A stretch of 47,883 nucleotides of DNA, from contig JACQXH010000078.1 in NCBI GenBank assembly GCA_016208845.1, positions 14,605 through 62,487 on the forward strand. Reading direction: 5' to 3'. Of this stretch, positions 18,943 to 41,697 are shown piece after piece. The notes below the pieces were generated by a model. That model had not been told where the DNA came from and ran no database searches. It saw only the letters and a program-made list of their open reading frames with translations. The stretch is from Nitrospirota bacterium (GTDB lineage Bacteria; Nitrospirota; Thermodesulfovibrionia; UBA6902; BMS3Bbin08). A program made the translations under genes and the position numbers. Position 1 is the first letter of the stretch, and each line of letters begins with the position of its first letter.

Positions 18943-18966
18943 CTTGCAGGCCGCCTTTATTTTACC

Positions 18967-21255: not shown

Positions 21256-21290
21256 ATGATATGTTGTTTATTCTTTCTTGTAATTATCTA

Positions 21291-21746: not shown

Positions 21747-22308
21747 CCCCTAACAACATAATTTTCTCATCTTTCAGCACATCCATAATAAACCCATCTT
21801 TTGCTTTTTTCTTAGTCAGGAACTCTTTGTAATCATAAATTATGTGATTTATGGTCCTGCCTGACATTTTCTCAAGACCGTTTATTTCCGAATCAAGCTT
21901 GTCAAAATCAACATCTCCGATGATTATCAGATCAACATCACTGTCTGCCTTTTCCTCTGCTTTTGCAAACGAACCATATATAAAAGCGAACTTAACAGCC
22001 GGAAGATTTTCTATTACAGTCTTAATCTCGCCGATAACCCCGACTGTTTTAAGAATAAGGCCTTTCAGCTCATTAAAAAAAGAACAATTCCTGTTCGTCT
22101 GAAAATACTTAAGGTTGCCATGTCTTGATGATGAAAGAATTCCGGCTTTTTCGAGAGCTGCCAGTTCGCGGCTGAGATTTGTAGAGTCTTCTTTAAGGAT
22201 GGTTGCAAGCTGGCGGACAAAGAAGCTTTCATCGCTGTGCGTGAAAAACCATGACAGCGCCTTTGCCCTGGTCCTTGAGCCAAATATTTTTTCTATTGCC
22301 TGTCCCAT
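21721..22308 (-). CDS. Winged-HTH plus nucleotidyltransferase (MNT) protein (putative antitoxin)
   Basis: The N-terminus is ArsR-like (FVRQLATILKEDSTNLSRELAALEKAGIL). The C-terminus has IYGSFAKAEEKADSDVDLIIIGD. Confidence 0.7.
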   Translation of the reverse strand: MGQAIEKIFGSRTRAKALSWFFTHSDESFFVRQLATILKEDSTNLSRELAALEKAGILSSSRHGNLKYFQTNRNCSFFNELKGLILKTVGVIGEIKTVIENLPAVKFAFIYGSFAKAEEKADSDVDLIIIGDVDFDKLDSEINGLEKMSGRTINHIIYDYKEFLTKKKAKDGFIMDVLKDEKIMLLGDERELKKA

Positions 22309-28558: not shown

Positions 28559-30301
28559 TCACATCTTCTCCGGGGCGCTGACTCCGAGAATTTTCAATCC
28601 CTCTTCAAGCGCAAGCTGAACAGCCCTGCAGAGGCTGAGCCTCGCACCGGTTATCACGCTGTCGTCTGTAAGGACCCTATGTTTATTGTAATAAGAATGA
28701 AAGAGCCGGGCCAGGTCCTGAAGATAATATGTTATCCTGTGCGGCTCAAAGGCAAATACCGCGCCTTCAAACATCATCGGATATTGGAGCAGTTTCTTGA
28801 TTATGGCGATCTCCTCGACTTCTTTTAATGCCGTTAAGTCTGTCCCTTGAACCCGAAAAGACCGTAATGCGTGATACGTAATGTGTGATGAGTTTGCTGT
28901 TCCCTGACTACTGTCTACTGAATACTGACTACTATCTTTCTGACCCCTGACCCTTCTCTCTTCCGCCTGCCTGAATATACTTGATATCCTTGCAAACGCA
29001 TACTGCACATAAAAAACAGGATTCTCCGCTGACTGCTCTTTTGCGACCTCTATGTCAAATTCGAGTTGACTGTCAGCCCTTCTTGTGAGAAATATGAATT
29101 TCGCTGTGTCAGAACCTACCTCATCAATTACCTCGCGCAGGGTTATGAATTCTCCTGCCCTCTTTGACATCTGCACGGGTTTGCCGTGCCTCAGGAGCGT
29201 TACCATCTGCACGATTATGACCCTGAATTTTTCCTTTGAAAGGCCGAAGGCCGAAAGCACCGACCTGATGCGCGGTATGTAGCCGTGATGGTCTGCGCCC
29301 CAGATGTCTATGATCGTATCAAAGCCCCTGTCGAGCTTGTCTTTGTGATAGGCGATATCAGAGGCAAAGTATGTATATTCGCCGTCCTGTTTGACAACAA
29401 CCCTGTCCTTGTCGTCGCCAAAGTTTGTTGAGCTGAACCATTTTGCGCCGTCTTTTTCATATAAAAAATTTTTATGCTGAAGCGCGGTCAGTGCCCCCTG
29501 GACCTTGCCTTTTTCATAAAGCTCTTTTTCGCTCTGCCATTTATCAAAGGTCACTCCAAAATCCTTCAGGTCCCTTTCAATATCGGACAGCATCATTTTA
29601 TAGGCATGACTGATAAAGAAATCACCGCATTGTTCAAAAGTATTATTAAGATATTTATTGCCGATATCTTTTATTATTTCTTCTGCTATCGAGGCGATAT
29701 AATCCCCTTTATAGCCGTTTTCAGGAAAATGGACGTCGTTTCCCAATGCCTGCTGATATCGTGAATAAACTGACAGCCCGAGGAGTTTTACCTGGAGTCC
29801 GGCGTCATTGACGTAAAACTCCTTCTCCACCTCAAACCCTGCCGCAGTAAGCAGGTTGCTAAGTGCATTGCCGATCGCAGCGCCCCTTCCATGCCCTATA
29901 TGAAGCGGCCCTGTTGGATTGGCGCTGATAAATTCGACCTGTATCCTTTTATTTTGTCCGAGGCCTGCGCTCAGGGATGGATGCCCTTCGCTCAGAAGTC
30001 GTTGCAGATTTTCATATAAGTATTCTTTTTTAAATCTGAAATTGATGAACCCTGCGCCTGCGATCTCTATATTTTCAAAAGGGCCGGATTGCTTAACTAT
30101 TTCTGAAAGAAGCTCTTCAGCTATCTTTTTAGGGGGCTTTTTGAGTGTTTTTGTAAGGCCCATTGCAACAGTGCTGGCAGCATCGCCAAGGTCCTCATTC
30201 CTTGGAATTTCCACATCTATATAGGGGATGCTTTCCAGCCCCCAGCCTTCTTTGAGGCTCGCAATGGCATTTGTGATCGCTTCAGTGACGGCCTTTTTCA
30301 T
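28559..30301 (-). CDS. argS: Arginyl-tRNA synthetase
   Basis: ANPTGPLHIGHGRG (HIGH), QMSKRAG, and the C-terminal anticodon-binding DALR region ending ...PEKM. Confidence 0.93.
   Translation of the reverse strand: MKKAVTEAITNAIASLKEGWGLESIPYIDVEIPRNEDLGDAASTVAMGLTKTLKKPPKKIAEELLSEIVKQSGPFENIEIAGAGFINFRFKKEYLYENLQRLLSEGHPSLSAGLGQNKRIQVEFISANPTGPLHIGHGRGAAIGNALSNLLTAAGFEVEKEFYVNDAGLQVKLLGLSVYSRYQQALGNDVHFPENGYKGDYIASIAEEIIKDIGNKYLNNTFEQCGDFFISHAYKMMLSDIERDLKDFGVTFDKWQSEKELYEKGKVQGALTALQHKNFLYEKDGAKWFSSTNFGDDKDRVVVKQDGEYTYFASDIAYHKDKLDRGFDTIIDIWGADHHGYIPRIRSVLSAFGLSKEKFRVIIVQMVTLLRHGKPVQMSKRAGEFITLREVIDEVGSDTAKFIFLTRRADSQLEFDIEVAKEQSAENPVFYVQYAFARISSIFRQAEERRVRGQKDSSQYSVDSSQGTANSSHITYHALRSFRVQGTDLTALKEVEEIAIIKKLLQYPMMFEGAVFAFEPHRITYYLQDLARLFHSYYNKHRVLTDDSVITGARLSLCRAVQLALEEGLKILGVSAPEKM
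28845..28955. repeat. Two adjacent heptamer-word tracts inserted in frame in argS
   Basis: CGTAATG CGTGATA CGTAATG TGTGATG, then CCCTGAC TACTGTC TACTGAA TACTGAC TACTATC ... CCCTGAC. It encodes about 35 extra aa (RVRGQKDSSQYSVDSSQGTANSSHITYHALRSFRVQG) between the catalytic and anticodon-binding domains. Confidence 0.7.
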
Positions 30302-30535: not shown

Positions 30536-30673
30536 CGTGTCTAAGAATGTACAGACTATTATGAGAACTTTAATAAGTGACAAAGATACAGCGTTTTTGT
30601 CTTGTGTTTTTAATCAACATATCCCCCTGTCCGGATAATCGGATAGGGGGATATGTGTAACTTCCCGTGATAT

Positions 30674-33004
30674 TTACTGCAAAGTTATCAATACGAGTAT
30701 TTCGCCGCGCTGCCCCTCTTTAAGAGGTTCAAGGGCCTTGCCCAGAAGCATGCCGGGCCTCAATTTATCTGAATCAGCCTTCATTGCATATCCTTTGACA
30801 GGGCTTGTGACAAGCAGGTCGCCTGCAGAGATCTTTCCATAATTCGTATCGACTTTGACCTTCACCCTTCCTGTGTGAGCAATAACTGCCTTATCATCTC
30901 CGCCTTCGCCAAGGATGATCCCGGGCATTTCAGATACGACTCCTGCGACCAGCGAATTGTATGCTCTATCAGAAGAAACCACCTGATTAATTTCTTTAGT
31001 ATCGATCATTACGACCATGCCCTTAGCCAGCTGTTCTGACGTTTTTACCCATTCTGCCACGTCCTGATATTTAGCTGCGATGTTGCCGTCTACCTGCAGA
31101 TTTCCTGTAACGTGCGCATTCCCGGCGACATGGAGCTTAGAGTCCGGACTTGCCGTCCCAATACCTAAATTACCATTAGGATCAATTCTTGCTCTTTCGC
31201 TTCCGGCATTGTTAAAAATGTGCTGGGTAGCGTCATATCGAGCGGAATAATAGCCTCCAGCCGTGTTAACTACTCGCCATTCTCCTACACCACCAAATGG
31301 AATAAGCCGTATAGAAACATCACTGGAAGTCACATCCAATTTTGCCCCAGGGGACAACGTCCCGATGCCAACGCCGCCTGTTTCTCTAATGACCATTGCG
31401 GGTGCCGTGTAACCACCATTCGGCCCATTATTGATTCTAAACATAATACCGCCATTAACACCGCTTGTAGTATCGGTTTCGTCAGAAAGGATAAGAAATC
31501 GTTTGCCTGTTGCATACGTACCAATAGGGTCATACTTGAGTGTTCCCATGTTATTGTATTCTGCAGTTGTCAGTGTTATTCCTTGCCAATTACTACCACG
31601 AACTTCTAATTTTGACGATGGATTAATCGTCCCGATGCCGACGTTGCCTCCGTTTTGATTTAATACAAGATTTCGATAGGCTGTCCCTTCTGTTACACTC
31701 TGGATAAATCCATAATTATTTGCTGTATCATATCCTATCCACATTTTATTGCTTGGATTTGTCAGGCCCTGCAGCATCAGTTGACTGCCAGCTGCAGATG
31801 TTCCATCCGCCATAACGTGAAGTTTATTGGCAGGTGATGTGGTCCCGATCCCAAGATTTCCCGATACGCTGTAATTAGAACCGGCCTGAGCCACCGGCCA
31901 GCTGGAGCGGCAGTCTGTTCCTATGCATAGCGCATTCCCCTTAATGCTGCCTGCAACATCTAATTTTTGACTTGGAGTTGTCGTTCCGATGCCGAGATTG
32001 CCTGATGCCAGATCAAAGCGGGCCCTGTTAGTCCAGTCTGTAATGACTCCTGCACTCGAAGAAGGAGAATACATGAAATCGATTGTGTTAAACATCATCT
32101 GGATCAGGCTGCTCGGCACTGCCGAAGGCTTTTGCCATACTACACCGCTACTGGTCCACTGCACAAATGCGTTACGGGAAAGCCCGGTCCCTACGCCTGA
32201 ACCTATAAAATAGGCATCGTATGGAAGGCCGAGATAGGAATAACCGCCATTTTGATCGCTTGACACGGCATTCCTGATCCGTACGTCGCCCCCCTGGACG
32301 TCCAATTTATATGCCGGGCTTGTCGTTCCTATACCAACATTACCGTTTTTATCAATCCTCATGCGTTCAACCATTGATGGGGAGCCGTCAGAAAGGCTGA
32401 ACTTCATATGAGGCATATCAGATATAGCCATAGTTCGTCCTTTGACGTCAATTTCACCAACAAGGTTAGCGGCGTTATAGAATCGTATATATTTGGAAGC
32501 CTCACCGTAATCATTTTCAATCCGTATTCCCATTCCGCCTGGCTGACTTCCTCCATCAATATGTAAAATATCACCGGGATTTGCCGTGCCGATGCCGACT
32601 TTTGTATTTGCGTCATCCGGGCCTTGTGAAGCAGAACCAGCTGAGAGATATATCTTGTCCGACCATATATCCATCTCATCCCGTGAAAAGAGTTTCATGG
32701 TCCCAGAAACAGGACTGCCGATATTCTGCTGGAAATTACCGTTAAAAATCAGATTTCCCAAAAAATTGGCGCCCATTGGCAACGTGGGTGTTCCAAATCT
32801 AAACCACCCATTGTTAGTATCTGCCAGTATTTCCGCCTGCCCATAACCGGTCTTGAATATGATCTTCTCTTCCTGTCCCTGACCAATTCCATCGCCTATG
32901 TAAAGTATGTCATTCTCCGCTAAAGCAATAGTCCCGGTCACGAGTAAAAATACTGAAATTACAAAACACAACATTACATATGCTGCTGTTTTTTTTGCTT
33001 TCAT
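30674..33004 (-). CDS. Secreted tail-fibre-like repeat protein, copy 1
   Basis: The start is ATG 33004 after AAAGGAGGAAAGCAGA. Signal peptide MKAKKTAAYVMLCFVISVFLLVTGTIALA. Seven copies of (N/G)GN(V/L)GIGTxxPxxKLxVxG. The C-terminal module is NIAAKYQDVAEWV...VAGVVSE.PGIILGE...GRVKVKVD...GDLLVTSPVKGYAMKA. Confidence 0.8.
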   Translation of the reverse strand: MKAKKTAAYVMLCFVISVFLLVTGTIALAENDILYIGDGIGQGQEEKIIFKTGYGQAEILADTNNGWFRFGTPTLPMGANFLGNLIFNGNFQQNIGSPVSGTMKLFSRDEMDIWSDKIYLSAGSASQGPDDANTKVGIGTANPGDILHIDGGSQPGGMGIRIENDYGEASKYIRFYNAANLVGEIDVKGRTMAISDMPHMKFSLSDGSPSMVERMRIDKNGNVGIGTTSPAYKLDVQGGDVRIRNAVSSDQNGGYSYLGLPYDAYFIGSGVGTGLSRNAFVQWTSSGVVWQKPSAVPSSLIQMMFNTIDFMYSPSSSAGVITDWTNRARFDLASGNLGIGTTTPSQKLDVAGSIKGNALCIGTDCRSSWPVAQAGSNYSVSGNLGIGTTSPANKLHVMADGTSAAGSQLMLQGLTNPSNKMWIGYDTANNYGFIQSVTEGTAYRNLVLNQNGGNVGIGTINPSSKLEVRGSNWQGITLTTAEYNNMGTLKYDPIGTYATGKRFLILSDETDTTSGVNGGIMFRINNGPNGGYTAPAMVIRETGGVGIGTLSPGAKLDVTSSDVSIRLIPFGGVGEWRVVNTAGGYYSARYDATQHIFNNAGSERARIDPNGNLGIGTASPDSKLHVAGNAHVTGNLQVDGNIAAKYQDVAEWVKTSEQLAKGMVVMIDTKEINQVVSSDRAYNSLVAGVVSEMPGIILGEGGDDKAVIAHTGRVKVKVDTNYGKISAGDLLVTSPVKGYAMKADSDKLRPGMLLGKALEPLKEGQRGEILVLITLQ

Positions 33005-33024
33005 TCTGCTTTCCTCCTTTAAAC

Positions 33025-33160
33025 TTGTAAATTGCAATTTGTAAATTTGAAATTTAAAAAAATTCCAAATTAAAATTTATAAACTCTGTGTCCCTGCCTG
33101 CCGGCAGGCAAGCTCTGTGGTTTACCCGCCTCTGGCGGCGCCTAAGGCGACCAGGGTTAA
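33025..33160. repeat. AAATTT-word tract plus a CACAGAG/CTGCC-GGCAG hairpin element
   Basis: AAATTGCAATTTGTAAATTTGAAATTTAAAAAAATTCCAAATTAAAATTT, followed by CTCTGTGTCCCTGCCTGCCGGCAGGCAAGCTCTGTGG. Confidence 0.65.
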
Positions 33161-33173
33161 TTGCATTATCTGG

Positions 33174-35171
33174 TTAAGGTGCGCTTATCACCACATTTCG
33201 CAATTGCTGCAAGTGGGCTGCTTTTATAACGGTGATCCCCGGCTGTATGGGTTTATCTGTCCATGTCTGGGCGCCTATGGCCTGATCGATCGCGGTACGG
33301 AGCTCGTTTATGTGCGCTGCTTTTGCCGGGTTGTTCAGCAGTATTGCGTCAGGGTCTGTCCATGTGTATGGTGAAGCTCCTTTTCTTTTTCTCAATACAT
33401 TAACTGAACTTCTCAGCTCTGTAATATGTATCGCTTTGATCACAGTTGAATATTGTGTTATTGCATTATCTGTCCAGACCTTTGATATATCAAGGGGATA
33501 AATGTCTATGCCGTCCATAGCCCCATCGCCGTCAGAGTCTTTCATTGAAGGATTTGTGCCTTTCAGATACTCCTGAAGATTGGTCAGCCCGTCTCCGTCA
33601 TAATCATCATTTGGGCCTTGAGACAAATTCCCGAAGTATTGAATTTCCCACGAGTCAAGCATTCCATCACTGTCGCTGTCAGGACTGGCGCAGGGCAATG
33701 CGCCAACGTAACTTCCTGTGCTTGACATTGTGCATGCAGGACTGCCCTGCATTGGACGATAGTCATTGTTTGCCTCGTCATAGAAAAGAGGATCAGCTGC
33801 TATTGAATTTGCATCTTTCCCGGTGTCAGCCTTATATAGTGAAAAGGTTGTCATGGAATAACCTTTGCATGTAGGAGGAACAGCATAATTCCTGCAGTAC
33901 CAGATCATATATGACCATGGAGGGGTGTATGGACTGGTAGGGATATCTGATGAGTCATACCACACATTGTTATTAAGGAAAAGATTTGCAAGGGCTGCCT
34001 CTGTCCATCCTCCTGCAAGTTTAAAGCCGCGGTCCATTGCCTCGTAAAAGATGTTATTGCGGATAATAAAATTAGAAATACTTGCATCATTGCCCCAGGA
34101 CATTATATGGCTTCCATACGAGGGCCTGCCCTGAGGTACGCTGCCCCAGCCATATCCTGAATAAGCGCATGTATTGTTTTCGACATAGATATTATAAGTA
34201 GAAGACGTCGTTGGTCCGTTGAAGTATTCAAAGCAATACCCGGCATTCCAGATGACATTGTTGCGGAAGTAGTGATTATACTTGGTATTTGTCCCGGAAC
34301 CCTGAGTCGTCAATGCAGCATCAAAGATCTCCCATATACGGTTTCTCTCTACATATATATTATTGGCGCTGTCCCAGAATTCTATGGCATTGCCGTATCT
34401 TACTACTCCTTCTTCTTGTGATATATATTGAACGGCGCCCCCGATATAGGAAAGGTCATTGTCAGTGATTTTTAAATGATGACAGCCGGGTCCGCCCCAT
34501 ATGCCATGTGAGCCGCTGTAACGCAGGGCTATATTATTTATTTCGATATACGATCCTATGATGAACATATGCCGATGAAGGGCGCATTCAATGTCTGAAT
34601 AATATGAAGCCGGATTTGACGTGGAATAAAGAAGCACCCTTCGGCGGGAGGAATCATAATAGAACTCGCCCTGATTATTAAGATAAGCAATTCCATTCCC
34701 TTCCATCTTTCCAACAGATGCTTCATTATTGAAGATCAGGTTTCCAACCGCATAGTAACTGCCGCCGTAGTAAAAGGAATTATCAGGCGTCGTCCATATA
34801 TTAGGAGTGCCTGTCAAGGTCCAGTCGGCTGTGCTGTTTTTCTCAACAGAACCAAGGAATAAAGGTTTTGGGCCTGTGCCGTATGAAGTGTAGGTGACAT
34901 ATCCGGCTGAACTGCCGTTTTTTAAGGCAGGATATGCATCTGTAGGAAGTCTCCACACATCACCGCTCTTGAAACAGACTGTCTGTCCGGGCTGGATAGT
35001 TTTAGTATTTAGATATGCGATGGTCTTCCACGGGGTTGATGCAGATGTGCCATTATTGCTGTTATTACCCATGCTGCTGCTGACGTAGTAATTGCACGCA
35101 GCTTGACTGGCGCTTACGCTAAGAGCAAGCAATACTGAAAGACTTGCTAATAAGATGAATATTTTTTTCAT
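33174..35171 (-). CDS. Secreted right-handed beta-helix (PbH1, tailspike/polysaccharide-lyase-like) protein with TSP3-type repeats and a shared C-terminal module
   Basis: The start is ATG 35171 after GAGGTGG. Signal peptide MKKIFILLASLSVLLALSVSASQA. Repeated turns xNNxIxxxG (INNIALRYSGSHGIWGG, ITDNDLSYIGG, VERNRIW, FRNNVIWNAGY, VENNTCAYSGYGWG, IRNNIFYEA, LNNNVWY). Then DSDSDGMLD..DYDGDGLTNLQEYLKGTNP..DSDGDGAMDG and a triple IKAxHxxELR tail. Confidence 0.8.
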   Translation of the reverse strand: MKKIFILLASLSVLLALSVSASQAACNYYVSSSMGNNSNNGTSASTPWKTIAYLNTKTIQPGQTVCFKSGDVWRLPTDAYPALKNGSSAGYVTYTSYGTGPKPLFLGSVEKNSTADWTLTGTPNIWTTPDNSFYYGGSYYAVGNLIFNNEASVGKMEGNGIAYLNNQGEFYYDSSRRRVLLYSTSNPASYYSDIECALHRHMFIIGSYIEINNIALRYSGSHGIWGGPGCHHLKITDNDLSYIGGAVQYISQEEGVVRYGNAIEFWDSANNIYVERNRIWEIFDAALTTQGSGTNTKYNHYFRNNVIWNAGYCFEYFNGPTTSSTYNIYVENNTCAYSGYGWGSVPQGRPSYGSHIMSWGNDASISNFIIRNNIFYEAMDRGFKLAGGWTEAALANLFLNNNVWYDSSDIPTSPYTPPWSYMIWYCRNYAVPPTCKGYSMTTFSLYKADTGKDANSIAADPLFYDEANNDYRPMQGSPACTMSSTGSYVGALPCASPDSDSDGMLDSWEIQYFGNLSQGPNDDYDGDGLTNLQEYLKGTNPSMKDSDGDGAMDGIDIYPLDISKVWTDNAITQYSTVIKAIHITELRSSVNVLRKRKGASPYTWTDPDAILLNNPAKAAHINELRTAIDQAIGAQTWTDKPIQPGITVIKAAHLQQLRNVVISAP

Positions 35172-35218
35172 GCAACACCACCTCATCTCTTAACATTATT
35201 AACTATCTCATTAGTTAA

Positions 35219-36136
35219 CTACTGCAAAGTTATCAATACGAGTATTTCGCCGCGCTGTCCGTCTGCGAGCGGCTCAAGCGCTTTACCGACAATCGTCCCC
35301 GGGCGATGGATCTTTGCTCCGCCAATGTCAATCGGTTCAGATCTCATCGCATAGCCTTTTACCGAACTTGTTACTAATAAATCCCCTGCAGAAATCTTCC
35401 CATTGCTTGCATCTACCTTTACCCTGACTCTTCCTGTGTGCGCTATTATGGCCTTGTCTTCCGAAGCCTCTCCAAGGATAATGCCGGGCTGCTCTGATAC
35501 AACACCTGCAACCAGTGTGTTATATGGCTTATCTGAAGCAATTACCTGATTTGCCTTTTCCGGGTCTATCATTACAACAGTGCCTGCGGTTAATTGTTCT
35601 GAAGTTTTAACCCATTCAGCAACGTCCTGATATTTGGCTGCGATATTGCCGTCAACCTGCAAGTTTCCTGTAACATGACCATTGCCGGCGACATGGAGCT
35701 TTGAGTCCGGGCTGGTCGTCCCGATGCCGACATTGCCTGAATTATCAATGCGAATCCGCTCAGCGCCGGCTGTATGGAATCTCATAGCGTCAGCATTTAT
35801 ATATGACTGCTGTCCGTAATAAATCCCGCCTCTTGCATTAGCCGTATCATTGGAAAAAGATATACCGCTTTGATATGCTTTTGGTGTCACAATAGAAATA
35901 TAGGCATTGTCATTACTTTCAAGAACTATATTCTCTTGAGATTGTGATGGATTACCCCCAGCATCACCCACTTTAACATTCAGTTTCGACACAGGCGTAG
36001 TTGTCCCGATACCAACGCTGCCGGTCTTTGTAATTGCAAGTCTGTCAGTGCCGGCTGTACCTAACATCAGCGTTCCAACTCCCTGGGCCATTCTGAACTC
36101 TGCTGTATCGGTGCCGGCCTGCATCTGATACGCCAC
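35219..36136 (-). CDS. Tail-fibre-like protein copy 2, C-terminal part (in frame with the upstream ORF across a TGA)
   Basis: GSVGIGTTTPVSKLNV, NVGIGTTSPDSKLHVAGNGHVTGNLQVDGNIAAKYQDVAEWV and a C-terminal module nearly identical to 30674-31180. Confidence 0.75.
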   Translation of the reverse strand: MAYQMQAGTDTAEFRMAQGVGTLMLGTAGTDRLAITKTGSVGIGTTTPVSKLNVKVGDAGGNPSQSQENIVLESNDNAYISIVTPKAYQSGISFSNDTANARGGIYYGQQSYINADAMRFHTAGAERIRIDNSGNVGIGTTSPDSKLHVAGNGHVTGNLQVDGNIAAKYQDVAEWVKTSEQLTAGTVVMIDPEKANQVIASDKPYNTLVAGVVSEQPGIILGEASEDKAIIAHTGRVRVKVDASNGKISAGDLLVTSSVKGYAMRSEPIDIGGAKIHRPGTIVGKALEPLADGQRGEILVLITLQ

Positions 36137-36142
36137 CTGATG

Positions 36143-37627
36143 TCAGGATGTTGAAGTCGTACTAAGTTGAACGCGGTTATGTCCGGTCCCGCTTACGAAT
36201 AAACCGGCGCTTGTTGAATCACTGTAATTCGTGCCTGCGATGCCTGCAATTTCCAGTTTGGCGGCCGGACTCGTTGTCCCGATCCCAACATTGCCTGAAC
36301 CGTTCTGAGACACCGGCCAGCTTGAGCGGCAGTCTGTCCCTATACAAAGCGCATTTCCTTTAATATTGCCTGCAACATCCAACCTTTGACCCGGAGTTAT
36401 CGTCCCGATGCCTACATTGCCATTATTCAATATAGACATTCTTTCTGAGGATGTATTGAAAAATCCCATGCGGCCGTTTTCATTTGATACGAACATAATA
36501 TTTCCATTTGTTGTCATTTTTATGCCGTTTGAAGTGGTTGCCGGCCCGCCCTCAATATGCGCGAATGTGTTAGAAGTCCCGTATAAGTGCAGTTTCTCAT
36601 TAGGACTTGTTGTCCCGATGCCGACATTGCCATTTGCTTGTATAACCATTCTTCTTGTTAACGCGGTATCTGTTACAAGCGACTTTGTCGCGAGGTATAT
36701 ATCTCCTGAAATCTGATTTGCCAAACCTGTTGCCTTAACATCAGTTCCTATCGCGGCATATCTTCCGGAACCTACATCCTGCATTCCAAAAACGATCTCA
36801 CTCCCATCATTGACGCTCTGAATTGAACCTAATTGCATATAAAGCCGCTGGTCTTTATTCCCTGCTGTTGATTTTGATGATGTTCCATTTGTATACAAAT
36901 TTAAAATTGCGAAAGGATTAGACGTTCCGATGCCGACATTGCCTTTGCCGTCAATCCTAACGCGTTCCGGAAAACTATTATCACCGTTTCTAGTATTGAA
37001 TGCTAAGCCTGCGCTTTCAGAATTGGCCGTAGCATTTTCAACCACGACCCGCAATTGAGCCCAGTCACGGGAAATCCCGCTTGCATTGGGGGCAAGAAAA
37101 GTTAATTTCCCCATTTCACTTCCGGGGGAAACATTGTTTATCCGTGTGAGACGGAGGTCTGCGTTACTATTAGTGCCTGAGATCTCAATCATTGAGCTTG
37201 GATTAGCCGTGCCCATACCGACTTTTGTATTTACATCATCAGGGCCTTGTAAAGCAGAACCAGCTGAGAGATATATCTTGTCCGCCCATATATCCATCTC
37301 ATCCCTTGAAAAGAGTTTTAATGTCCCTCCGACAGGGCTACTGATATTTTGTTGCAGGCTACCTCCAAATATTAAACTACCCATAAAATTGGCGCCCATT
37401 GGCAATGTGGGTGTCCCAAATCTAAACCATCCATTATTAGTATCTGCCAGTATTTCTGCCTGTCCATAACCGGTCTTGAATACGATCTTCTCTTCCTGCC
37501 CCAGGCCAACCCCATCGCCTATGTAAAGTATGTCATTTTCCGCAAAGGCAATAGTCCCGGTCACAAGTAAAAATACTGAAATTACAAAACACAACATTAC
37601 ATATGCTGCTGTTTTTTTTGCTTTCAT
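36143..37627 (-). CDS. Tail-fibre-like protein copy 2, N-terminal part with signal peptide
   Basis: The first ~130 aa are nearly identical to copy 1 (MKAKKTAAYVMLCFVISVFLLVTGTIAFAENDILYIGDG...). GIGT-P-KL repeats follow. It ends at TGA 36143-36145, in frame with ORF 35219..36136. Confidence 0.8.
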   Translation of the reverse strand: MKAKKTAAYVMLCFVISVFLLVTGTIAFAENDILYIGDGVGLGQEEKIVFKTGYGQAEILADTNNGWFRFGTPTLPMGANFMGSLIFGGSLQQNISSPVGGTLKLFSRDEMDIWADKIYLSAGSALQGPDDVNTKVGMGTANPSSMIEISGTNSNADLRLTRINNVSPGSEMGKLTFLAPNASGISRDWAQLRVVVENATANSESAGLAFNTRNGDNSFPERVRIDGKGNVGIGTSNPFAILNLYTNGTSSKSTAGNKDQRLYMQLGSIQSVNDGSEIVFGMQDVGSGRYAAIGTDVKATGLANQISGDIYLATKSLVTDTALTRRMVIQANGNVGIGTTSPNEKLHLYGTSNTFAHIEGGPATTSNGIKMTTNGNIMFVSNENGRMGFFNTSSERMSILNNGNVGIGTITPGQRLDVAGNIKGNALCIGTDCRSSWPVSQNGSGNVGIGTTSPAAKLEIAGIAGTNYSDSTSAGLFVSGTGHNRVQLSTTSTS

Positions 37628-37673
37628 TCTGCTTTCCTCCTTTAAAATGGTTAAATTTATTTTCTAAAAACAT

Positions 37674-40600
37674 TTAAGGTGCGCTTATCACCACACTCCG
37701 CAATTGCTGCAAGTGAGCTGCTTTTATAATGGTAATCCCCGGCTGGATGGGTTTATCTGTCCATGTCTGGGCGCCTATAGCCTGATCGATCGCAGTGCGT
37801 AGTTCATTTATGTGCACAGCTTTTACCGGGTTGTTCAGCAGTATCGGATCCGCGTCTGCCCAGGTGTACGGCTGAAATCCTTTTCTTTTTCTTAAGCTAT
37901 TGACTGCGCCTCTCAGCTCTGTAATATGTATTGCTTTGATCACAGTTGAATATTGTGTTATTGTGTTATCAGTCCAGACCTTTGATATATCAAGGGGATA
38001 AATGTCTATGCCGTCCATAGCCCCATCGCCGTCAGAATCTTTTATTGAAGGATTTGTGCCTTTCAGATACTCCTGAAGATTGGTCAGCCCGTCCCCATCA
38101 ATATCGTCATTAGGATTTAGTCCGCTTGTACCCCCATATGTGTCCTCAAATAGATCTGACATACCGTCATTGTCGCTGTCCGATGCGCAGCTTCTGGAAG
38201 GGTCGTACTTGCATGGATCGCACGCATCTCCTCTGCCGTCTCCGTCTATGTCTTCCTGATTTGGATTGGAAATGCCAATGCAGTTGTCATCACAATTGGT
38301 TTTGTTGCCGCCTTTGCACGGATTTTCAGCGGGAGCACCCAGACCGTCTGTATTGGGCGATATGCCGTCACTGTCAGTATCAAGGGCAAATGCAATATCA
38401 TTGGTGTCGTTATATGCAAATGTAAAACCAAATACCTCTTTCCCAAAGTTTTCAGTGGAAGGATGTGTCAAAAGGGTGTTCCTGGATCCGTTTGAAGCTA
38501 TATTCGGGAAACATATATTGTCCGGGCCAAATCCCCATTTGTTTGAAGCTATGAAAGTCTTATATCCGAAAGTTGTCCCATATCCCCAGGGATCATATAC
38601 AGGGATTCCTATGGGAATGCCTGATGGAGTGACAAGCAGGGCCCATGCTTCATTCCATGTGTTTCCGCTCATGTTTTCCCAGTGAATTATAAAGTTCTCG
38701 CCGTCAAAAGCTGCCACAGGCGTAACGTCGCTATGAATAAAGATAGGGGAACCGGTGGATACGCCGGAAGCGTCAAAGAATTCTATATATCCGACGCCCT
38801 GCCTTTTATAAACGACAAGGTATCCGTTGTTTCCATATACGACTCCATATGCGCCGCCTATGCCGGGCGATATAATCGAGAGAGTAGAACTGCCTAAAGT
38901 AACAATTTGCCCGTCAAGTTCGACAAGCCTGCCGAACAAGCCGTTTCCAAGCCATGAAACCAGGAACCTGTCATTTATGTTGTCATAAGCCGTTGAGTAC
39001 ACCCTGGTGCAGGCCCCATTTCCGGATATGGCAAATTCATTGCCGACCTTATTGCCGTTTATATCTGTAAACAGTCCATAGGTAACTGCCTGACCGCTTA
39101 TATCCCGCGCCCATGAAATAAGGAATTCATCATTGCCGCCTGTTACGTTTATTGGAATGCCGTATGCAGTGGGGCTGTTTACGCAGCCATAATAAAAATT
39201 CGGGTTGAGCAGGATCTTCTCTGCCGATACAGCGCCTGTCTGCTCATCAATGGTCCTTGCGGCAAGCTGAGAATATGTCGAGACACCCGGGGTGCAGGAT
39301 GCCGTACTGCACCTTTCATATACAACAAGGAATTTGCCGCTGCTATAAGAAATTCCGATATTGCTATGACCCTTAGTCCCTGCAAATACCGGGGCATATG
39401 ACCAATAATTGTCATTGAGAATATTAGTTACAGCGATCAGGAAGTTACTTCCTGTGAACTGTCCTGTGCTTTTATCTATAAACCTTCCGTATATCTCCCT
39501 TGAACCGTCATTGTCTTTATCAGCATCCCAAATTGCCATATATTTATTGGCGCCGGCAGCAGGGCGGTTAAAGTTCCCGTTCTTGGAAAAATCATTTGTG
39601 ATAGGGATATTAATGTCATCTGAGAAATTGCCTGAAGGCGGTATCCTTTGTATATAAATGTCTGTGCCGTCTGTTGCGCCGTCAGGGTCTTTACCTTCAA
39701 ATGGGGCGGCATTATACAAGGCCCTGCCGTCGGTCCAGGCCACAATATAGTGAGGATAATAGCTGGCAGTTGTGCTGTCGTAGTAATTTGAAAAAGCGAG
39801 CCGCGGTTTTGACAGAGAATTTGCTGCGGTTCTGTCTGAAATGCCGACGGTCTTTATGATACTCAAATTTTTGCCTGTAAAGCTACCCTTGAGATTAAGG
39901 TTATTCTCTGTCCATGCCACGAGATAATTAGTTCCATCAAAACCTGTAGTGGGATCGGCCTGATCCTGCGAACCGGATGCGATGGTTGCAGAAGCGCCCA
40001 GAGTTCCTGACTTACTTACAAGCCTTGCGATTACATCACGGTTAGTTGAAGGGCCTTCCTGCCAGGCCACCAGATAATTGGTCCCGTCAAAGCTGATCGC
40101 AGGGCCGCTCTGGTCCGGCGTGCCTGAGGCGACAGTTGCAGAAGCGCCCAGGGTCCCTGACTTGCTCACAAGCTTTGCAATTACATCCCGGTTAGTCGAA
40201 GGGCCTTCCTGCCAGGCCACCAGATAATTGGTCCCGTCAAAGCTGATCGCAGGGCTGGTCTGGTCCAGTGTGCCTGAGGCAATGGTTACAGACGTGCCTA
40301 ATGCTCCTGCCTGACTCACAAACCTTGCGATTATGTCACGGTTAGTTGCAGGTCCCTGCTGCCAGGCCACCAGATAATTGGTGCCGTCAAAGCTAACGGC
40401 CGGACTGCTCTTTTCAATAGTATTTGATGTGCTGTTTATGCGGACTGCCGTGCCTTTTACAATGTCAACGAAATAAAAAGAAGCCTGGAGCTGAGTTATT
40501 TTATCCCAGGTTTTTCCATAATATGCCTCATTGCGTCTCACACAATCATTTACATCTTCAACATCGATCTTGCTGCTTCCCACCTGGCATTTTTTTGTAA

Positions 40601-40805
40601 ACGATATCACTTGACCGTATATATCATAATAGCCGGTTGAAGACGTATATTCCTTCCAGGCGACCAGGTATTTTGTACCGTCAGTGTTTGAGGCGATTGA
40701 AGGGGCGGTTTGAGCGGCAGTCCCTGATCTCACGGGAAAATTAAAATCGCCGTAAGGACTTGCAGAATAAGTCGCCAGCAGCATGGCCCCCCAGAACATA
40801 TCCAC
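37674..40805 (-). CDS. Large repeat protein (YLVAW 50-aa repeats, TSP3 Ca-binding repeats, shared C-terminal module); no signal peptide of its own
   Basis: FDGTNYLVAWQEGPSTNRD... x3.2 and canonical NPNQEDIDGDGRGDACD thrombospondin-type-3 motifs. The C-terminal ~130 aa are close to 90% identical by eye to those of 33174..35171. The frame stays open 44 codons upstream of the ATG, up to the stop of ORF 40939..41697. Confidence 0.8.
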   Translation of the reverse strand: MDMFWGAMLLATYSASPYGDFNFPVRSGTAAQTAPSIASNTDGTKYLVAWKEYTSSTGYYDIYGQVISFTKKCQVGSSKIDVEDVNDCVRRNEAYYGKTWDKITQLQASFYFVDIVKGTAVRINSTSNTIEKSSPAVSFDGTNYLVAWQQGPATNRDIIARFVSQAGALGTSVTIASGTLDQTSPAISFDGTNYLVAWQEGPSTNRDVIAKLVSKSGTLGASATVASGTPDQSGPAISFDGTNYLVAWQEGPSTNRDVIARLVSKSGTLGASATIASGSQDQADPTTGFDGTNYLVAWTENNLNLKGSFTGKNLSIIKTVGISDRTAANSLSKPRLAFSNYYDSTTASYYPHYIVAWTDGRALYNAAPFEGKDPDGATDGTDIYIQRIPPSGNFSDDINIPITNDFSKNGNFNRPAAGANKYMAIWDADKDNDGSREIYGRFIDKSTGQFTGSNFLIAVTNILNDNYWSYAPVFAGTKGHSNIGISYSSGKFLVVYERCSTASCTPGVSTYSQLAARTIDEQTGAVSAEKILLNPNFYYGCVNSPTAYGIPINVTGGNDEFLISWARDISGQAVTYGLFTDINGNKVGNEFAISGNGACTRVYSTAYDNINDRFLVSWLGNGLFGRLVELDGQIVTLGSSTLSIISPGIGGAYGVVYGNNGYLVVYKRQGVGYIEFFDASGVSTGSPIFIHSDVTPVAAFDGENFIIHWENMSGNTWNEAWALLVTPSGIPIGIPVYDPWGYGTTFGYKTFIASNKWGFGPDNICFPNIASNGSRNTLLTHPSTENFGKEVFGFTFAYNDTNDIAFALDTDSDGISPNTDGLGAPAENPCKGGNKTNCDDNCIGISNPNQEDIDGDGRGDACDPCKYDPSRSCASDSDNDGMSDLFEDTYGGTSGLNPNDDIDGDGLTNLQEYLKGTNPSIKDSDGDGAMDGIDIYPLDISKVWTDNTITQYSTVIKAIHITELRGAVNSLRKRKGFQPYTWADADPILLNNPVKAVHINELRTAIDQAIGAQTWTDKPIQPGITIIKAAHLQQLRSVVISAP
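39912..40391. repeat. 150-nt (50-aa) tandem coding repeats, about 3.2 copies
   Basis: CCAGGCCACCAGATAATTGGTCCCGTCAAAGCT recurs at 150-nt spacing, with the protein unit FDGTNYLVAWQEGPSTNRDVIAxLVSKSGTLGASATxASGxxDQxxPAIS. Confidence 0.85.
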
Positions 40806-40938
40806 ATTTACTCTCAGTGTGCCCTCAAAGATCAGCCTTCTTGACAGGGTGCTTGCTGAAGAGGGATTGCTTGATTCATAGGAGGAAATGGCGAGTGTGT
40901 CAAAATCAAAGAACTGTCCGTATACGTCGCCATTGGAA

Positions 40939-41697
40939 TCACCCTATAAGCGTCTCGCTGCCATAAAAAGTGCTGCCGATGAAGGGGTCGATGACCACTG
41001 GATACTCTGCCTCTGACAGCCATTTGGCCGAGACCAGTATCCTTATTAAAGGCTTGTCTTTTTCAGTGGTGGAAATAGACGGCAATACCTCAAGTGTTTT
41101 GCCTGTCTTGTCTCTTGCATGGACTTTCCCGTAAGAAAAAAGCAGATTCCCCTTTGCGTCCATAAAATCTATGCCGCGATTCCGGTCCTCGCGCGTCTTA
41201 AGGTCTGTGATTATTTCACCTTCAATGATCAGGCTGCTGTCAGGGGATTCTACGCCGGATAAGTTAGCGGGCTTGCTTTCAATAAGCCAGCTCTGCTCTA
41301 TGCCGCCTTTTTTTGCCTCGTATATTTCTTTTATGTCCTTTGTGAGAATATAAATTGCGCGTTTGCCGTCTGCCAGAGGTTTCATTTCTTCGTTGCAGGC
41401 CCACAAAACATCATCATCTAATATTAAACTGCCGGGACGGTATTCAAATGAATAGTCTCCGTATGCGCTCTTCTTTATAAATTTAAAACCTTTGCCTGAT
41501 AGTTCGGCCCTGTAGGTGTTTTCTTCAAGTACGTATTTCTCATCTTCCTGCGTGAACATACCGGGTTCATAAGTAATTTTCTGAAAAGCCGCAGGGGGGG
41601 ATATTTCTCCCCCGGGTGTTCCTTCTGCCCTGACTGACATCAGTGTGCCAAACATGACCAATAGAATCGCTGCAAATAGAGCGGACAATAATTTCAT
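40939..41697 (-). CDS. Signal-peptide-bearing N-terminal domain, probably the 5' part of the 1043-aa gene (+1 frame offset)
   Basis: MKLLSALFAAILLVMFGTLMSVRAEG signal peptide. It ends ...ETLIG-TGA. Skipping the T of the TGA gives LIGDSNGDVYGQFFDFD..., continuous with ORF 37674..40805. Confidence 0.7.
   Translation of the reverse strand: MKLLSALFAAILLVMFGTLMSVRAEGTPGGEISPPAAFQKITYEPGMFTQEDEKYVLEENTYRAELSGKGFKFIKKSAYGDYSFEYRPGSLILDDDVLWACNEEMKPLADGKRAIYILTKDIKEIYEAKKGGIEQSWLIESKPANLSGVESPDSSLIIEGEIITDLKTREDRNRGIDFMDAKGNLLFSYGKVHARDKTGKTLEVLPSISTTEKDKPLIRILVSAKWLSEAEYPVVIDPFIGSTFYGSETLIG

What the first reader, a model, noticed from the sequence alone, without database searches (positions are those of the whole stretch)
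30674..41697. Segmentally duplicated island of Sec-secreted proteins resembling phage receptor-binding proteins, with no virion genes
The island lies between argS and the atp operon, with all genes on the minus strand. Gene order is a large signal-peptide/YLVAW-repeat/TSP3 protein, then tail-fibre-like protein copy 2, then a beta-helix/TSP3 protein, then tail-fibre-like protein copy 1. The fibre-like proteins carry 7 or more GNVGIGTxxPxxKLxVxG repeats and a C-terminal module (YQDVAEWV...GRVKVKVD...GDLLVTSxVKGYAM). That module reminds me of the C-terminal domains of phage fibre and appendage proteins, possibly Peptidase_G2/IMC-like; this is a low-confidence recollection. The beta-helix protein looks like a tailspike or depolymerase. 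All of them have Sec signal peptides, and there are no capsid, terminase, baseplate or sheath genes. The unit (fibre gene plus a gene ending in the TSP3 and triple-IKAxHxxELR tail) is present twice, with near-identical ends and divergent middles. This is consistent with diversifying surface or adhesion apparatus. It could be an undescribed cell-surface fibre system built from domesticated phage receptor-binding-protein modules.
Basis: partly seen in the sequence, partly recalled or inferred. Interest (0 to 1): 0.66.

Follow-up and report, generated by a model that had tools for sequence, protein, structure and literature searches.

The report
Secreted phage-like fibres paired with cargo proteins
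A Nitrospirae genome carries two tandem copies of a gene pair: a secreted fibre resembling the prey-binding fibres of Bdellovibrio, ending in a phage-type self-cleaving folding domain, and a secreted enzyme-like protein ending in a previously undescribed three-helix module. The same pairing recurs in dozens of soil-bacterial genomes, where the partner is often an Rhs toxin, protease or oxidase.

Summary
All genes at 30674-41697 lie on the minus strand in the stated order, and the unit (cargo gene ending in TSP3 plus triple IKAxHxxELR, then fibre gene) occurs twice. The ends are 72-90% identical in DNA and the middles diverge.

Two corrections apply. Fibre copy 2 has an in-frame TGA at 36143-36145. 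The large protein is split by a one-base frameshift near 40942.

The fibres are not an undescribed kind. Their GNVGIGTxxPxxKL repeat is the capping-loop motif of the Bdellovibrio MAT (mosaic adhesive trimer) fibres, and it matches their crystal-structure sequences (8OND, E 1e-11).

The C-terminal module is a phi29 gp12-type (Peptidase_G2) intramolecular chaperone. KYQ|DVAEW aligns with the phi29 cleavage site S691|D692..E695, and the fold matches 3GQH/3SUC.

No virion genes occur in the window or in 79 homologous loci.

The new finding is the pairing. In 55 of 79 genome loci (Acidobacteriota, Rokubacteria, Nitrospirota), an IKA-module protein sits directly beside the fibre gene. Its cargo varies: Rhs repeats, galactose-oxidase-like domains, subtilases, GH5.

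The IKA module has no Pfam, PHROG or structural match. The reverse association is not universal.

Verdict: a new variant of a known kind. The physical link between fibre and cargo is inferred, not shown.

The parts
30674..33004 (-). Fibre gene 1 (776 aa from ATG 33004). It has a signal peptide (aa 1-29), a lineage-specific N-terminal region (aa 30-133), a shaft with 7 capping-loop repeats (GNVGIGTxxPxxKL), a CIGTDCRSSW block and a C-terminal G2-type chaperone.
30677..31063 (-). Peptidase_G2-like intramolecular chaperone of fibre 1 (D648 to Q776). Predicted self-cleavage lies between Q647 and D648 in KYQ|DVAEW.
   Evidence: Pfam PF11962 gives 21.3 bits (cut-off 25), and 16 of 25 relatives match it. 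The AF2 model has pLDDT 92. Foldseek hits 3SUC and 3GQH with TM 0.52-0.56. hhalign aligns the motif to phi29 S691|D692..E695.
32606..32917 (-). N-terminal region of mature fibre 1 (aa 30-133). It is about 90% identical in fibre 2 but is an orphan elsewhere.
   Evidence: A phmmer search of 1.84 billion representatives found full-length matches only to the two window paralogues, plus one weak partial relative, P0275.
33174..35186 (-). Cargo gene 1: a 670-aa secreted right-handed beta-helix protein followed by three TSP3-type Ca-binding motifs and the IKA module.
   Evidence: Homologues are flagged PF13229 or 'choice-of-anchor Q'. The N-terminus matches PDB 7V6M and 6KQS. TSP3_bac scores 19.7 bits, below its cut-off.
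33177..33491 (-). IKA module of cargo 1: three repeats of about 35 aa, each [FYW]TDxxLxxGxTxIKAxHIxELRxAV.
   Evidence: The module shows in the profile alignment. It has no Pfam or PHROG hit. AF2 predicts three helices with pLDDT 73 and pTM 0.69. It has no PDB or BFVD fold match.
35219..37627 (-). Fibre gene 2, with the same architecture as fibre 1. As assembled it is broken by an in-frame TGA at 36143-36145 into a 494-aa part and a 305-aa part.
35222..35626 (-). Peptidase_G2-like chaperone of fibre 2.
   Evidence: Pfam PF11962 gives E 6.6e-5 and 22.9 bits. It is about 80% identical to the copy in fibre 1.
37674..40942 (-). Cargo gene 2, main part: seven YLVAW-type repeats (tandem 150-nt units at 39912-40411), a TSP3 repeat region and an IKA module (37677-37988).
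   Evidence: Thrombospondin type-3 repeat matches in PDB reach E 2e-5.
40939..41697 (-). Cargo gene 2, N-terminal part with the signal peptide. A one-base frameshift in a G run at about 40942-40944 separates it from the main part.
30617..30656 (.). A 40-nt imperfect palindrome just downstream of fibre 1, possibly the terminator of the island.
   Evidence: Self-BLAST inverted hit. The terminator scan did not call it.

Best explanation
The island is chromosomal and is not part of a virion. It holds two tandem cassettes. Each encodes a Sec-exported cargo protein followed by a Sec-exported fibre.

The fibre. It is a MAT-like fibre, expected to be trimeric and beta-helical, built from capping-loop repeats. 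It most likely folds with the help of its C-terminal phi29-gp12-type (Peptidase_G2) intramolecular chaperone. That chaperone is then predicted to cut itself off between Q647 and D648 (KYQ|DVAEW), using the invariant Asp and Glu. The mature fibre would stand on the cell surface as an adhesin. Its divergent middle region would give the binding specificity.

The cargo. The cargo protein here is a beta-helix carbohydrate-active-type domain or a YLVAW-repeat propeller-like domain. It ends in Ca-binding TSP3 repeats and a three-helix IKA module. I infer that the IKA module couples the cargo to the fibre or to the same anchor, so that enzyme or toxin and adhesin act together on a target surface.

Cassette 2, the upstream one, is disrupted twice in this assembly and may be decaying.

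Shown: homology, architecture, the conserved cleavage motif, the fold, export signals, absence of virion genes and the conserved gene pairing. Inferred: trimerisation, cleavage, surface display and the IKA-fibre contact.
For: Fibre type:
- The fibre sequence matches Bdellovibrio MAT crystal-structure sequences: 8OND at E 1e-11, plus 8OML, 8ON4, 8OL4 and 8OJN.
- Its repeat equals the published capping-loop motif V-G-G/N-pi-x-x-P-x-x-x-L (PMC10769870).
- It hits PHROG tail-fibre families at E 1e-28.

Chaperone:
- The module lies at the extreme C-terminus in 119 of the 120 best homologues, at 55-60% identity.
- Q, D, A and E of the motif are invariant, and K, Y and W nearly so.
- Pfam Peptidase_G2 matches 16 of 25 members, best E 8e-7.
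- The AF2 model has pLDDT 92. Foldseek finds phi29 gp12 (3SUC, 3GQH; TM 0.52-0.56) and beta-tulip decoration proteins.
- hhalign places KYQDVAEW on phi29 TWS691-D692-FAE695-Y.
- Phage tail fibres from IMG/VR carry the same module with the motif AQY[SA]DLAE.

Cellular and exported:
- 87 of 98 genomic fibres have signal-peptide-like N-termini, against 0 of 17 viral ones.
- The module occurs at 502 places in species-representative genomes, several per genome, on Mb-scale chromosomes.
- The only conserved neighbours are IKA proteins and a regulator; no virion or secretion genes are conserved.

Pairing:
- 55 of 79 genomic loci hold an IKA-module ORF. Of 57 such ORFs, 48 lie within 200 bp of a fibre gene and 55 are on the same strand.
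- The closest relative of the window cassette (L092) has an RHS/YD-shell protein with TSP3 and IKA, followed by a fibre.
- Within the window, the best-conserved stretch between the two cassettes is the contiguous block of IKA tail plus fibre N-terminus.
Against: - No experiment or multimer model shows trimerisation, cleavage, surface location or IKA-fibre binding.
- The window proteins fall just below Pfam's gathering score for Peptidase_G2 (21-23 bits against 25).
- The hhalign probability against phi29 is only 56% over 53 columns.
- P1 of the predicted cleavage site is Gln, not Ser as in phi29.
- The ~130-aa N-terminal domain shared by all Bdellovibrio MATs was not found by sequence.
- No outer-membrane export route was identified.
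- The pairing is asymmetric. Seven IMG/VR loci and four metagenome contigs chosen for the IKA module show no G2 fibre in the DNA available. Fibres also occur in arrays of up to five per single IKA protein.
- High identity of the IKA-tail plus fibre-N-terminus block could simply reflect recent duplication or gene conversion.
- Cassette 2 carries a stop and a frameshift.
Confidence: 0.5

Rival explanations
1. The fibre and the IKA-module protein are independent secreted proteins. They are co-transcribed because they serve the same process, such as polymer degradation or biofilm formation. The IKA module is a general extracellular spacer or oligomerisation element with no contact to the fibre.
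For: IKA-module proteins occur without a nearby G2 fibre in 7 viral-contig loci and 4 metagenome contigs. The module sits at the C-terminus, near the N-terminus or internally in different partners. Stoichiometry varies: up to five fibres per IKA protein.
Against: Adjacency is very tight and spans several phyla: 48 of 57 IKA ORFs lie within 200 bp of a fibre gene and 55 of 57 are on the same strand. This holds despite wholly different cargo domains. Nothing else in the neighbourhood is conserved.
Confidence: 0.3
2. This is a contact-dependent antagonism or predation device. The fibre recognises another cell, as MAT fibres do for Bdellovibrio prey. The IKA-linked cargo (Rhs toxin, protease, lytic enzyme) is the effector that the fibre brings to that cell.
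For: At least 13 partners are Rhs-repeat proteins of 1000-2300 aa. L092, the nearest relative of the window cassette, has an RHS/YD-shell partner preceded by orphan Rhs-tip-like genes. Other cargos are peptidase C10, subtilase and GH5. MAT fibres bind prey glycans (PMC10769870).
Against: The two window cargos are not toxins; they are a beta-helix and a repeat propeller-like protein. Many partners are oxidases or binding modules. No immunity genes were examined. None of these lineages is known to be a predator. No delivery machinery is encoded nearby.
Confidence: 0.15
3. The island is a remnant of a prophage or tailocin, with its tail-fibre and tailspike genes left behind.
For: The fibres hit PHROG tail-fibre families. 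The C-terminal chaperone is shared with phage tail fibres.
Against: The 47.9-kb window has no virion, integrase or tRNA feature. All proteins carry Sec signal peptides, which the viral homologues lack. The same cassette sits in ordinary chromosomal contexts at 502 places, and no phage genes are conserved beside it. GC content matches the flanks.
Confidence: 0.03

Closest known systems
MAT (mosaic adhesive trimer) fibres of Bdellovibrio bacteriovorus (Caulton et al. 2024, PMC10769870; PDB 8OND, 8OML, 8OL4, 8OJN)
   Same: Both have a Sec signal peptide and a long shaft built from the same capping-loop repeat (NVGIGTxxPxxKL). The sequences match directly (E 1e-11). Both have a mosaic design with conserved ends and variable parts, occur as several paralogues per genome, and use a phage-derived C-terminal chaperone in many members.
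   Different: The chaperone is G2-type (D..E motif), not S74 (SDxxxK). No separate tip domain remains after the predicted cleavage. The N-terminal domain common to all 21 Bdellovibrio MATs is not detectable by sequence. The fibre is paired with an IKA-module cargo gene. The hosts are not known predators.
Bacillus phage phi29 gp12 pre-neck appendage and its autochaperone (Peptidase_G2; PDB 3SUC, 3GQH)
   Same: Both have a C-terminal beta-stranded chaperone after a beta-helical shaft. The motif at the cleavage site is conserved: phi29 WS|DFAEY against YQ|DVAEW here. The folds are similar (TM 0.52-0.56).
   Different: The sequence relationship is remote: sub-threshold Pfam score and 26% identity over 53 columns. 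P1 is Gln here. The protein is exported by Sec and is not part of a virion. The shaft is a MAT-type fibre, not a teichoic-acid-degrading tailspike.
Uncultivated phage tail fibres with the same C-terminal module (IMG/VR loci L080-L090; Sinorhizobium jumbo phage Phosso)
   Same: They share the G2-type module at 28-39% identity, with the motif AQY[SA]DLAE.
   Different: They have typical phage tail-fibre N-termini, no signal peptide and no capping-loop repeats. They sit among virion genes and have no IKA partner.
Sec-dependent Rhs/WapA-type polymorphic toxins, and dockerin-cohesin enzyme display (analogies only)
   Same: Many IKA partners are giant Rhs-repeat proteins. A small conserved module attached to very different catalytic domains is the logic of dockerins.
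   Different: There is no sequence or fold relationship to dockerin, PAAR or known Rhs delivery domains. Binding has not been shown.

Membership tests
MAT superfamily (PMC10769870) | N-terminal Sec signal peptide | tested here: met
   The sequence reads MKAKKTAAYVMLCFVISVFLLVTGTIALA|E in both fibres. A crude hydrophobicity test is positive for both, and for 87 of 98 genomic relatives.
MAT superfamily (PMC10769870) | Repeated capping-loop motif V-G-G/N-pi-x-x-P-x-x-x-L on a beta-helical shaft | tested here: met
   There are seven copies per fibre. phmmer finds MAT crystal-structure sequences: 8OND at E 1e-11, and 8OML, 8ON4, 8OL4 and 8OJN at E 2e-6 to 6e-3. The motif list is in the paper's Supplementary Fig. 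18.
MAT superfamily (PMC10769870) | Conserved beta-rich domain of about 130 aa directly after the signal peptide, shared by all 21 Bdellovibrio MATs | tested here: not met
   A region of the right size and position exists (aa 30-133). However, phmmer against 1.84 billion representatives finds full-length matches only to the two window paralogues, plus one weak partial relative. It is also absent from Acidobacteriota relatives and from L092. This was a sequence-level test only. No direct or structural comparison with a Bdellovibrio N-domain was possible.
MAT superfamily (PMC10769870) | Homotrimer displayed on the cell surface | not testable with these tools
   Only monomer prediction was available, and there are no localisation data.
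MAT S74 subgroup / Peptidase_S74 | C-terminal S74 chaperone with catalytic SDxxxK | tested here: not met
   Pfam gives no S74 hit. The site reads YQDVAEW, with no Ser-Lys dyad.
Peptidase_G2 (phi29 gp12-type intramolecular chaperone, PF11962) | Match to the Pfam model at or above the gathering score | tested here: inconclusive
   The window proteins score 21.3 and 22.9 bits against a cut-off of 25. Sixteen of 25 relatives match, best E 8.3e-7, covering model positions 32-101 of 228. Some homologues carry a precomputed PF11962 hit.
Peptidase_G2 (phi29 gp12-type intramolecular chaperone, PF11962) | Cleavage-site motif with Asp at P1' and Glu three residues later (phi29 S691|D692, E695) | tested here: met
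   Q-D-V-A-E-W is invariant or nearly so in 52 and in 25 aligned relatives. hhalign and hmmalign place it on phi29 S-D-F-A-E-Y. That these are the phi29 cleavage-site and catalytic residues rests on my recollection of Xiang et al. 2009, which was not available to read.
Peptidase_G2 (phi29 gp12-type intramolecular chaperone, PF11962) | Beta-stranded chaperone body at the extreme C-terminus after a beta-helical shaft | tested here: met
   The AF2 model has pLDDT 92 and is all-beta. Foldseek finds 3SUC at E 3.5e-4 and 3GQH at E 1e-3 with rmsd 3.6 A. The module is C-terminal in 119 of 120 homologues.
Peptidase_G2 (phi29 gp12-type intramolecular chaperone, PF11962) | Autocatalytic cleavage after trimerisation | not testable with these tools
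   This needs expression of the fragment and of D648A/E651A mutants.
Prophage or tailocin | Capsid, terminase, portal, sheath, tube or baseplate genes nearby | tested here: not met
   Pfam and PHROG scans of the other window ORFs give housekeeping genes and HEPN/NTase pairs only. No tRNA was found. No such family is conserved across 79 homologous loci.
Right-handed parallel beta-helix proteins (PF13229) | Match to the beta-helix repeat model | tested here: inconclusive
   The window protein has no direct Pfam hit. However, homologues at 40-60% identity carry PF13229 and are named right-handed parallel beta-helix or choice-of-anchor Q proteins. The N-terminal 80 aa match the beta-helix proteins 7V6M and 6KQS.
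Bacterial TSP3 repeats (PF18884) | Ca-binding DxDxDG repeats | tested here: inconclusive
   PF18884 scores 19.7 bits against a cut-off of 25. There are three motifs in the beta-helix protein and six in the large protein. Thrombospondin-2 type-3 repeats match at E 2e-5.

The most novel reading that the evidence does not exclude
G2-chaperoned MAT-like fibres and IKA-module proteins form a widespread, undescribed two-component extracellular system in Acidobacteriota, Rokubacteria/Methylomirabilota and Nitrospirota. In it, a phage-derived trimeric fibre carries or aims interchangeable cargos (Rhs toxins, proteases, oxidases, glycanases) at target cells or polymers through the three-helix IKA docking module. 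This would be a Sec-dependent, non-contractile counterpart of phage fibre-plus-depolymerase assemblies and of contact-dependent toxin delivery.
Probability: 0.25. Interest if true: 0.85.

Novelty: new variant of a known kind. Interest (0 to 1): 0.58.

Why it matters
Trimeric phage-like fibres on bacterial cells were recognised only in 2024, in the predator Bdellovibrio, and were framed as a predation adaptation. This locus and its relatives show a related fibre class using a different phage chaperone (G2 rather than S74). That class is abundant in non-predatory soil and groundwater phyla that are hard to culture.

The fibre gene is habitually coupled to a gene whose product carries an unannotated module joined to very different enzymes and Rhs toxins. 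If the module docks cargo to the fibre, three things follow. It would explain how these bacteria present degradative enzymes or toxins at a distance from the cell. It would define a new protein-protein docking pair. It would also give a handle for assigning function to hundreds of large 'hypothetical' proteins in Acidobacteriota.

Tried and rejected
- Prophage or tailocin remnant: rejected, because no virion genes occur in the window or in homologous loci.
- S74 chaperone: rejected, with no Pfam hit and no SDxxxK motif.
- Recoding of the in-frame TGA (selenocysteine or a reassigned stop): no support. TGA ends argS and the NtrC-like gene, and Rfam found nothing at gathering threshold.
- The beta-helix protein as a phage tailspike: no PHROG hit, and its homologues are cellular.
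- The IKA module as a known domain: no hit in Pfam, PHROG, NCBIfam, PDB sequences, PDB folds or BFVD folds.
- A literature text search for the motif returned only noise.
- Xiang et al. 2009 (phi29 gp12) was not held. I fetched the gp12 sequence from NC_011048 instead.
A thinner 19-row alignment was used, hence the moderate pLDDT.
- The word-indexed protein search with the IKA profile returned only 19 short proteins. It is not a measure of family size.
- The reverse neighbourhood test on IKA-selected contigs was limited by short contigs.
- The promoter and terminator scan was uninformative: counts were at or below shuffled expectation.

Full report
WHAT IS THERE. The window comes from a Nitrospirae MAG (locus tags HY758_039xx). 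Between argS (28559-30301) and the atp operon (42216 onwards), five to six minus-strand ORFs fill 30674-41697. In order of transcription they are:
- A 252-aa ORF with a signal peptide (40939-41697).
- A 1043-aa ORF (37674-40805). Together with the 252-aa ORF it forms one gene, broken by a single extra G in a GGG run at about 40942-40944. Removing it gives ...GSETLIGDSNGDVYGQFFD... in frame.
- Fibre 2 (35219-37627), interrupted by an in-frame TGA at 36143-36145.
- A 670-aa protein (33174-35186).
- Fibre 1 (30674-33004 from the ATG).

TGA is a normal stop here, as in argS and the NtrC-like gene. As assembled, the upstream cassette is therefore damaged twice. I cannot tell whether this is biology or assembly error.

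THE DUPLICATION IS REAL. Self-BLASTN gives four matching blocks:
- 32577-33045 matches 37200-37668 at 88%.
- 33174-33614 matches 37674-38114 at 90%.
- 30675-31174 matches 35220-35737 at 72%.
- 31878-32002 matches 36297-36421 at 84%.

At protein level the fibres share about 90% identity over the first ~150 aa and about 80% over the last ~180 aa, with divergent middles. Each fibre has seven GNVGIGTxxPxxKL-type repeats. Each cargo protein ends in DxDxDG (TSP3-type) motifs and three IKAxHxxELR repeats. The large protein has seven YLVAW-type repeats. The best-conserved stretch between the cassettes is the contiguous block of cargo tail plus fibre 5' end.

NO VIRION. The rest of the window encodes holB, tmk, an RlpA-like protein, gatA/gatB, tgt, an NtrC-type regulator, sugar-modifying enzymes and HEPN/nucleotidyltransferase pairs. 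It has no capsid, terminase, sheath or baseplate gene, no tRNA and no Rfam family. GC content of the island equals that of the flanks.

THE FIBRES ARE MAT-LIKE. phmmer of fibre 1 against PDB sequences finds five chains, all from Bdellovibrio bacteriovorus fibres: Bd2133 (8OND) at E 1e-11, and 8OML, 8ON4, 8OL4 and 8OJN. These are the 'mosaic adhesive trimer' (MAT) proteins of Caulton et al. 2024 (PMC10769870). That paper defines the family by four features: a signal peptide, a conserved ~130-aa N-terminal domain, an intertwined trimeric beta-helical shaft with capping loops of consensus V-G-G/N-pi-x-x-P-x-x-x-L, and a variable tip that is either an S74 chaperone/protease or another fold. The paper's Supplementary Table S3 already lists MAT-like proteins in other phyla, though none from Nitrospirae and none with a G2-type tip. 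PHROG tail-fibre families also match, at E 1e-28. The fibre as a kind is therefore known.

THE N-TERMINAL REGION IS NOT THE MAT DOMAIN BY SEQUENCE. I searched aa 30-160 of fibre 1 with phmmer against 1.84 billion representative proteins. Full-length matches came only from the two window paralogues. The other 77 hits match only the repeat-like second half, at internal positions. One 266-aa protein (P0275) matches weakly across the region. Relatives in Acidobacteriota and in L092 start their first capping loop soon after the signal peptide, or carry other N-terminal domains.

THE C-TERMINAL MODULE IS A phi29-gp12-TYPE CHAPERONE. The last ~135 aa, starting at KYQDVAEW, lie at the extreme C-terminus of 119 of the 120 best homologues, at 55-60% identity. 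In two alignments Q, D, A and E of this motif are invariant, and K, Y and W nearly so. Pfam Peptidase_G2 scores just below threshold on the window proteins (21.3 and 22.9 bits against 25). It matches 16 of 25 relatives, best E 8.3e-7.

An AF2 model (pLDDT 92) is all-beta. Foldseek finds the phi29 head-fibre base, beta-tulip capsid decoration proteins, and phi29 gp12 itself: 3SUC at E 3.5e-4, and 3GQH at E 1e-3 with TM 0.52/0.56 and rmsd 3.6 A. I fetched gp12 from NC_011048. hhalign (E 1.1e-4, probability 56%) places KYQ-DVAEW on TWS691-D692FAE695Y. From my knowledge of Xiang et al. 2009 (not held here), this is the phi29 autocleavage site, with Asp and Glu required. The T5 fibre paper confirms that the phi29 chaperone has a beta-stranded body unlike S74 chaperones (PMC4690869).

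Phage tail fibres in IMG/VR carry the same module (28-39% identity, motif AQY[SA]DLAE). They have classical tail-fibre N-termini, no signal peptide and no capping loops. Among cultured phages only the jumbo Sinorhizobium phage Phosso matched. I therefore predict self-cleavage between Q647 and D648 of fibre 1. This is inference; no S74 motif is present.

DISTRIBUTION. The word-indexed search found more than 5000 relatives, almost all unnamed. The species-representative genome collection holds 502 places. These are mainly in Acidobacteriota (Pyrinomonadaceae, Blastocatellia, Vicinamibacterales), Rokubacteria/Methylomirabilis and Manganitrophaceae. They often occur several per genome and lie inside Mb-scale chromosomes. 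By a crude test, 87 of 98 genomic fibres have signal-peptide-like N-termini, against 0 of 17 viral ones.

THE CONSERVED PARTNER. I searched the 90 fetched loci with the tail of the 670-aa protein. This found the triple-IKA module in 57 ORFs of 55 loci, all of them genomic. Of these ORFs, 48 lie within 200 bp of a fibre gene and 55 are on the same strand. Three arrangements appear:
- When the partner is upstream, the module is at its C-terminus, as in the window and in L092.
- When the partner is downstream, the module is near its N-terminus or internal.
- Some loci have arrays of up to five fibre genes followed by one giant IKA protein (L008).

All-against-all clustering of ORFs in these loci shows no other conserved neighbour except a winged-helix regulator in 17 loci. 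No secretion or virion genes are conserved.

The cargo attached to the module is very diverse. Among 48 scanned partners:
- 11 have RHS repeats, and two further giants outside that set also do.
- 9-10 have glyoxal/galactose-oxidase kelch domains plus DUF4082.
- 4 are subtilases.
- 2 have peptidase C10 plus RCC1 plus BACON.
- 14 carry fn3 domains.
- GH5, CBM6/35 and a DUF5122 propeller occur singly.

The nearest relative of the window cassette, L092, has an RHS/YD-shell protein ending in TSP3 plus IKA, followed by a 489-aa fibre.

THE MODULE ITSELF. It consists of three repeats of about 35 aa, with consensus [FY]TDxxLxxGxTxVKAxHIxELRxAVnAlR. It has no Pfam, NCBIfam or PHROG hit. AF2 with a thin alignment gives three helices (pLDDT 73, pTM 0.69). 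It has no significant fold match in the PDB (best E 1) or BFVD (best E 0.085).

LIMITS OF THE PAIRING. The association is asymmetric. Seven IMG/VR contigs with IKA-module proteins have no G2 fibre within 10 kb. Some of those proteins carry Ig-like regions that hit Hoc-like PHROGs. Four metagenome contigs found through the IKA profile show none in the short flanks available. So the module is not restricted to fibre neighbourhoods. Fibre N-terminal domains differ by partner class. That fits co-adaptation but is confounded by relatedness.

THE CARGOS IN THE WINDOW. The 670-aa protein's first ~500 aa are 40-60% identical to many cellular secreted proteins. These are flagged PF13229 or named right-handed parallel beta-helix or choice-of-anchor Q proteins. 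In other phyla they end in CBM4_9 or T9SS sorting domains. In this lineage the TSP3 plus IKA tail occupies the place where other lineages put an anchoring or sorting module. The protein has no PHROG hit, so there is no evidence of phage origin. Its N-terminal 80 aa match the beta-helix proteins 7V6M and 6KQS (GH136 lacto-N-biosidase). The large protein's YLVAW repeats remain unclassified. Its TSP3 region matches thrombospondin type-3 repeats.

INTERPRETATION.
- Shown: a chromosomal, duplicated two-gene cassette; MAT-type fibre shafts; a G2-type C-terminal chaperone with a conserved cleavage motif; Sec export signals; no virion context; and a gene pairing with IKA-module proteins conserved across phyla.
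- Inferred from the two characterised relatives: trimerisation, chaperone-assisted folding, autocleavage, surface display and adhesion.
- Inferred from gene neighbourhood only: that the IKA module couples cargo to fibre.

I put about 0.8 on the homology and maturation part, about 0.5 on surface-adhesin function, and about 0.3 on a direct IKA-fibre contact.

NOVELTY. The fibre is a new variant of a known kind (MAT), with a G2 instead of an S74 chaperone and a different N-terminus. The IKA module and its pairing with such fibres appear to be undescribed. I found nothing in the domain libraries, the structure libraries or the MAT literature.

Noticed in passing
window 18214-22308 (minus strand): gatB (16786-18213) and gatA (22464-23861) are separated by an insert. 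It holds a fused nucleotidyltransferase-HEPN gene (18214-18942), a HEPN gene (21291-21746) overlapping an NTase gene (21721-22308), and a 762-aa ORF (18967-21255) with no Pfam or PHROG hit. GC drops to 0.33-0.40 at 19-22 kb. It looks like a small defence or toxin-antitoxin islet inside the gatCAB region.
   Followed up: partly
window 36143-36145 and 40939-40945: Both genes of the upstream cassette are disrupted in the assembly, by an in-frame TGA and by one extra G in a GGG run. The downstream cassette is intact. This could be decay of one duplicate, population heterogeneity in the MAG, or consensus error.
   Followed up: partly
L008 3823-18654 (Blastocatellia MAG JAWVCT010000026.1): Five G2-chaperone fibre genes lie in tandem, followed by a 2288-aa Rhs-repeat protein with an internal IKA module and a DUF4214 domain. 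Similar arrays occur in L022, L059 and L060.
   Followed up: partly
L092 780-4638 (JGI metagenome contig Ga0373622_0004012): Upstream of the RHS/IKA protein and fibre pair lie short genes with RHS core, YD-shell, DUF5675 and DUF6531 hits. They resemble orphan Rhs toxin-tip cassettes. The pair sits next to a CODH/ACS operon.
   Followed up: no
L094-L100 (IMG/VR contigs): IKA-module proteins also occur on contigs classed as viral, with no G2 fibre nearby. Two of them carry Ig-like regions that hit Hoc-like head-decoration PHROGs. I did not check whether these contigs are true phages.
   Followed up: partly
window fibre 1 aa 360-369 and fibre 2 aa 428-437 (31878-32002 and 36297-36421): A conserved GNALCIGTDCRSSWP block with two cysteines is 84% identical in DNA between the paralogues, although it sits in otherwise divergent shafts. 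It recurs in the family consensus as GGLCIAGDCKTxWSQV. It may be a disulphide-stapled hinge or junction.
   Followed up: no
17 of the fetched genomic loci, e.g. L075 6927-7811: A winged-helix (OmpR/CadC-like) regulator gene is the only other family recurrent near the fibre genes: 22 ORFs in 17 loci. It is absent from the window island.
   Followed up: no
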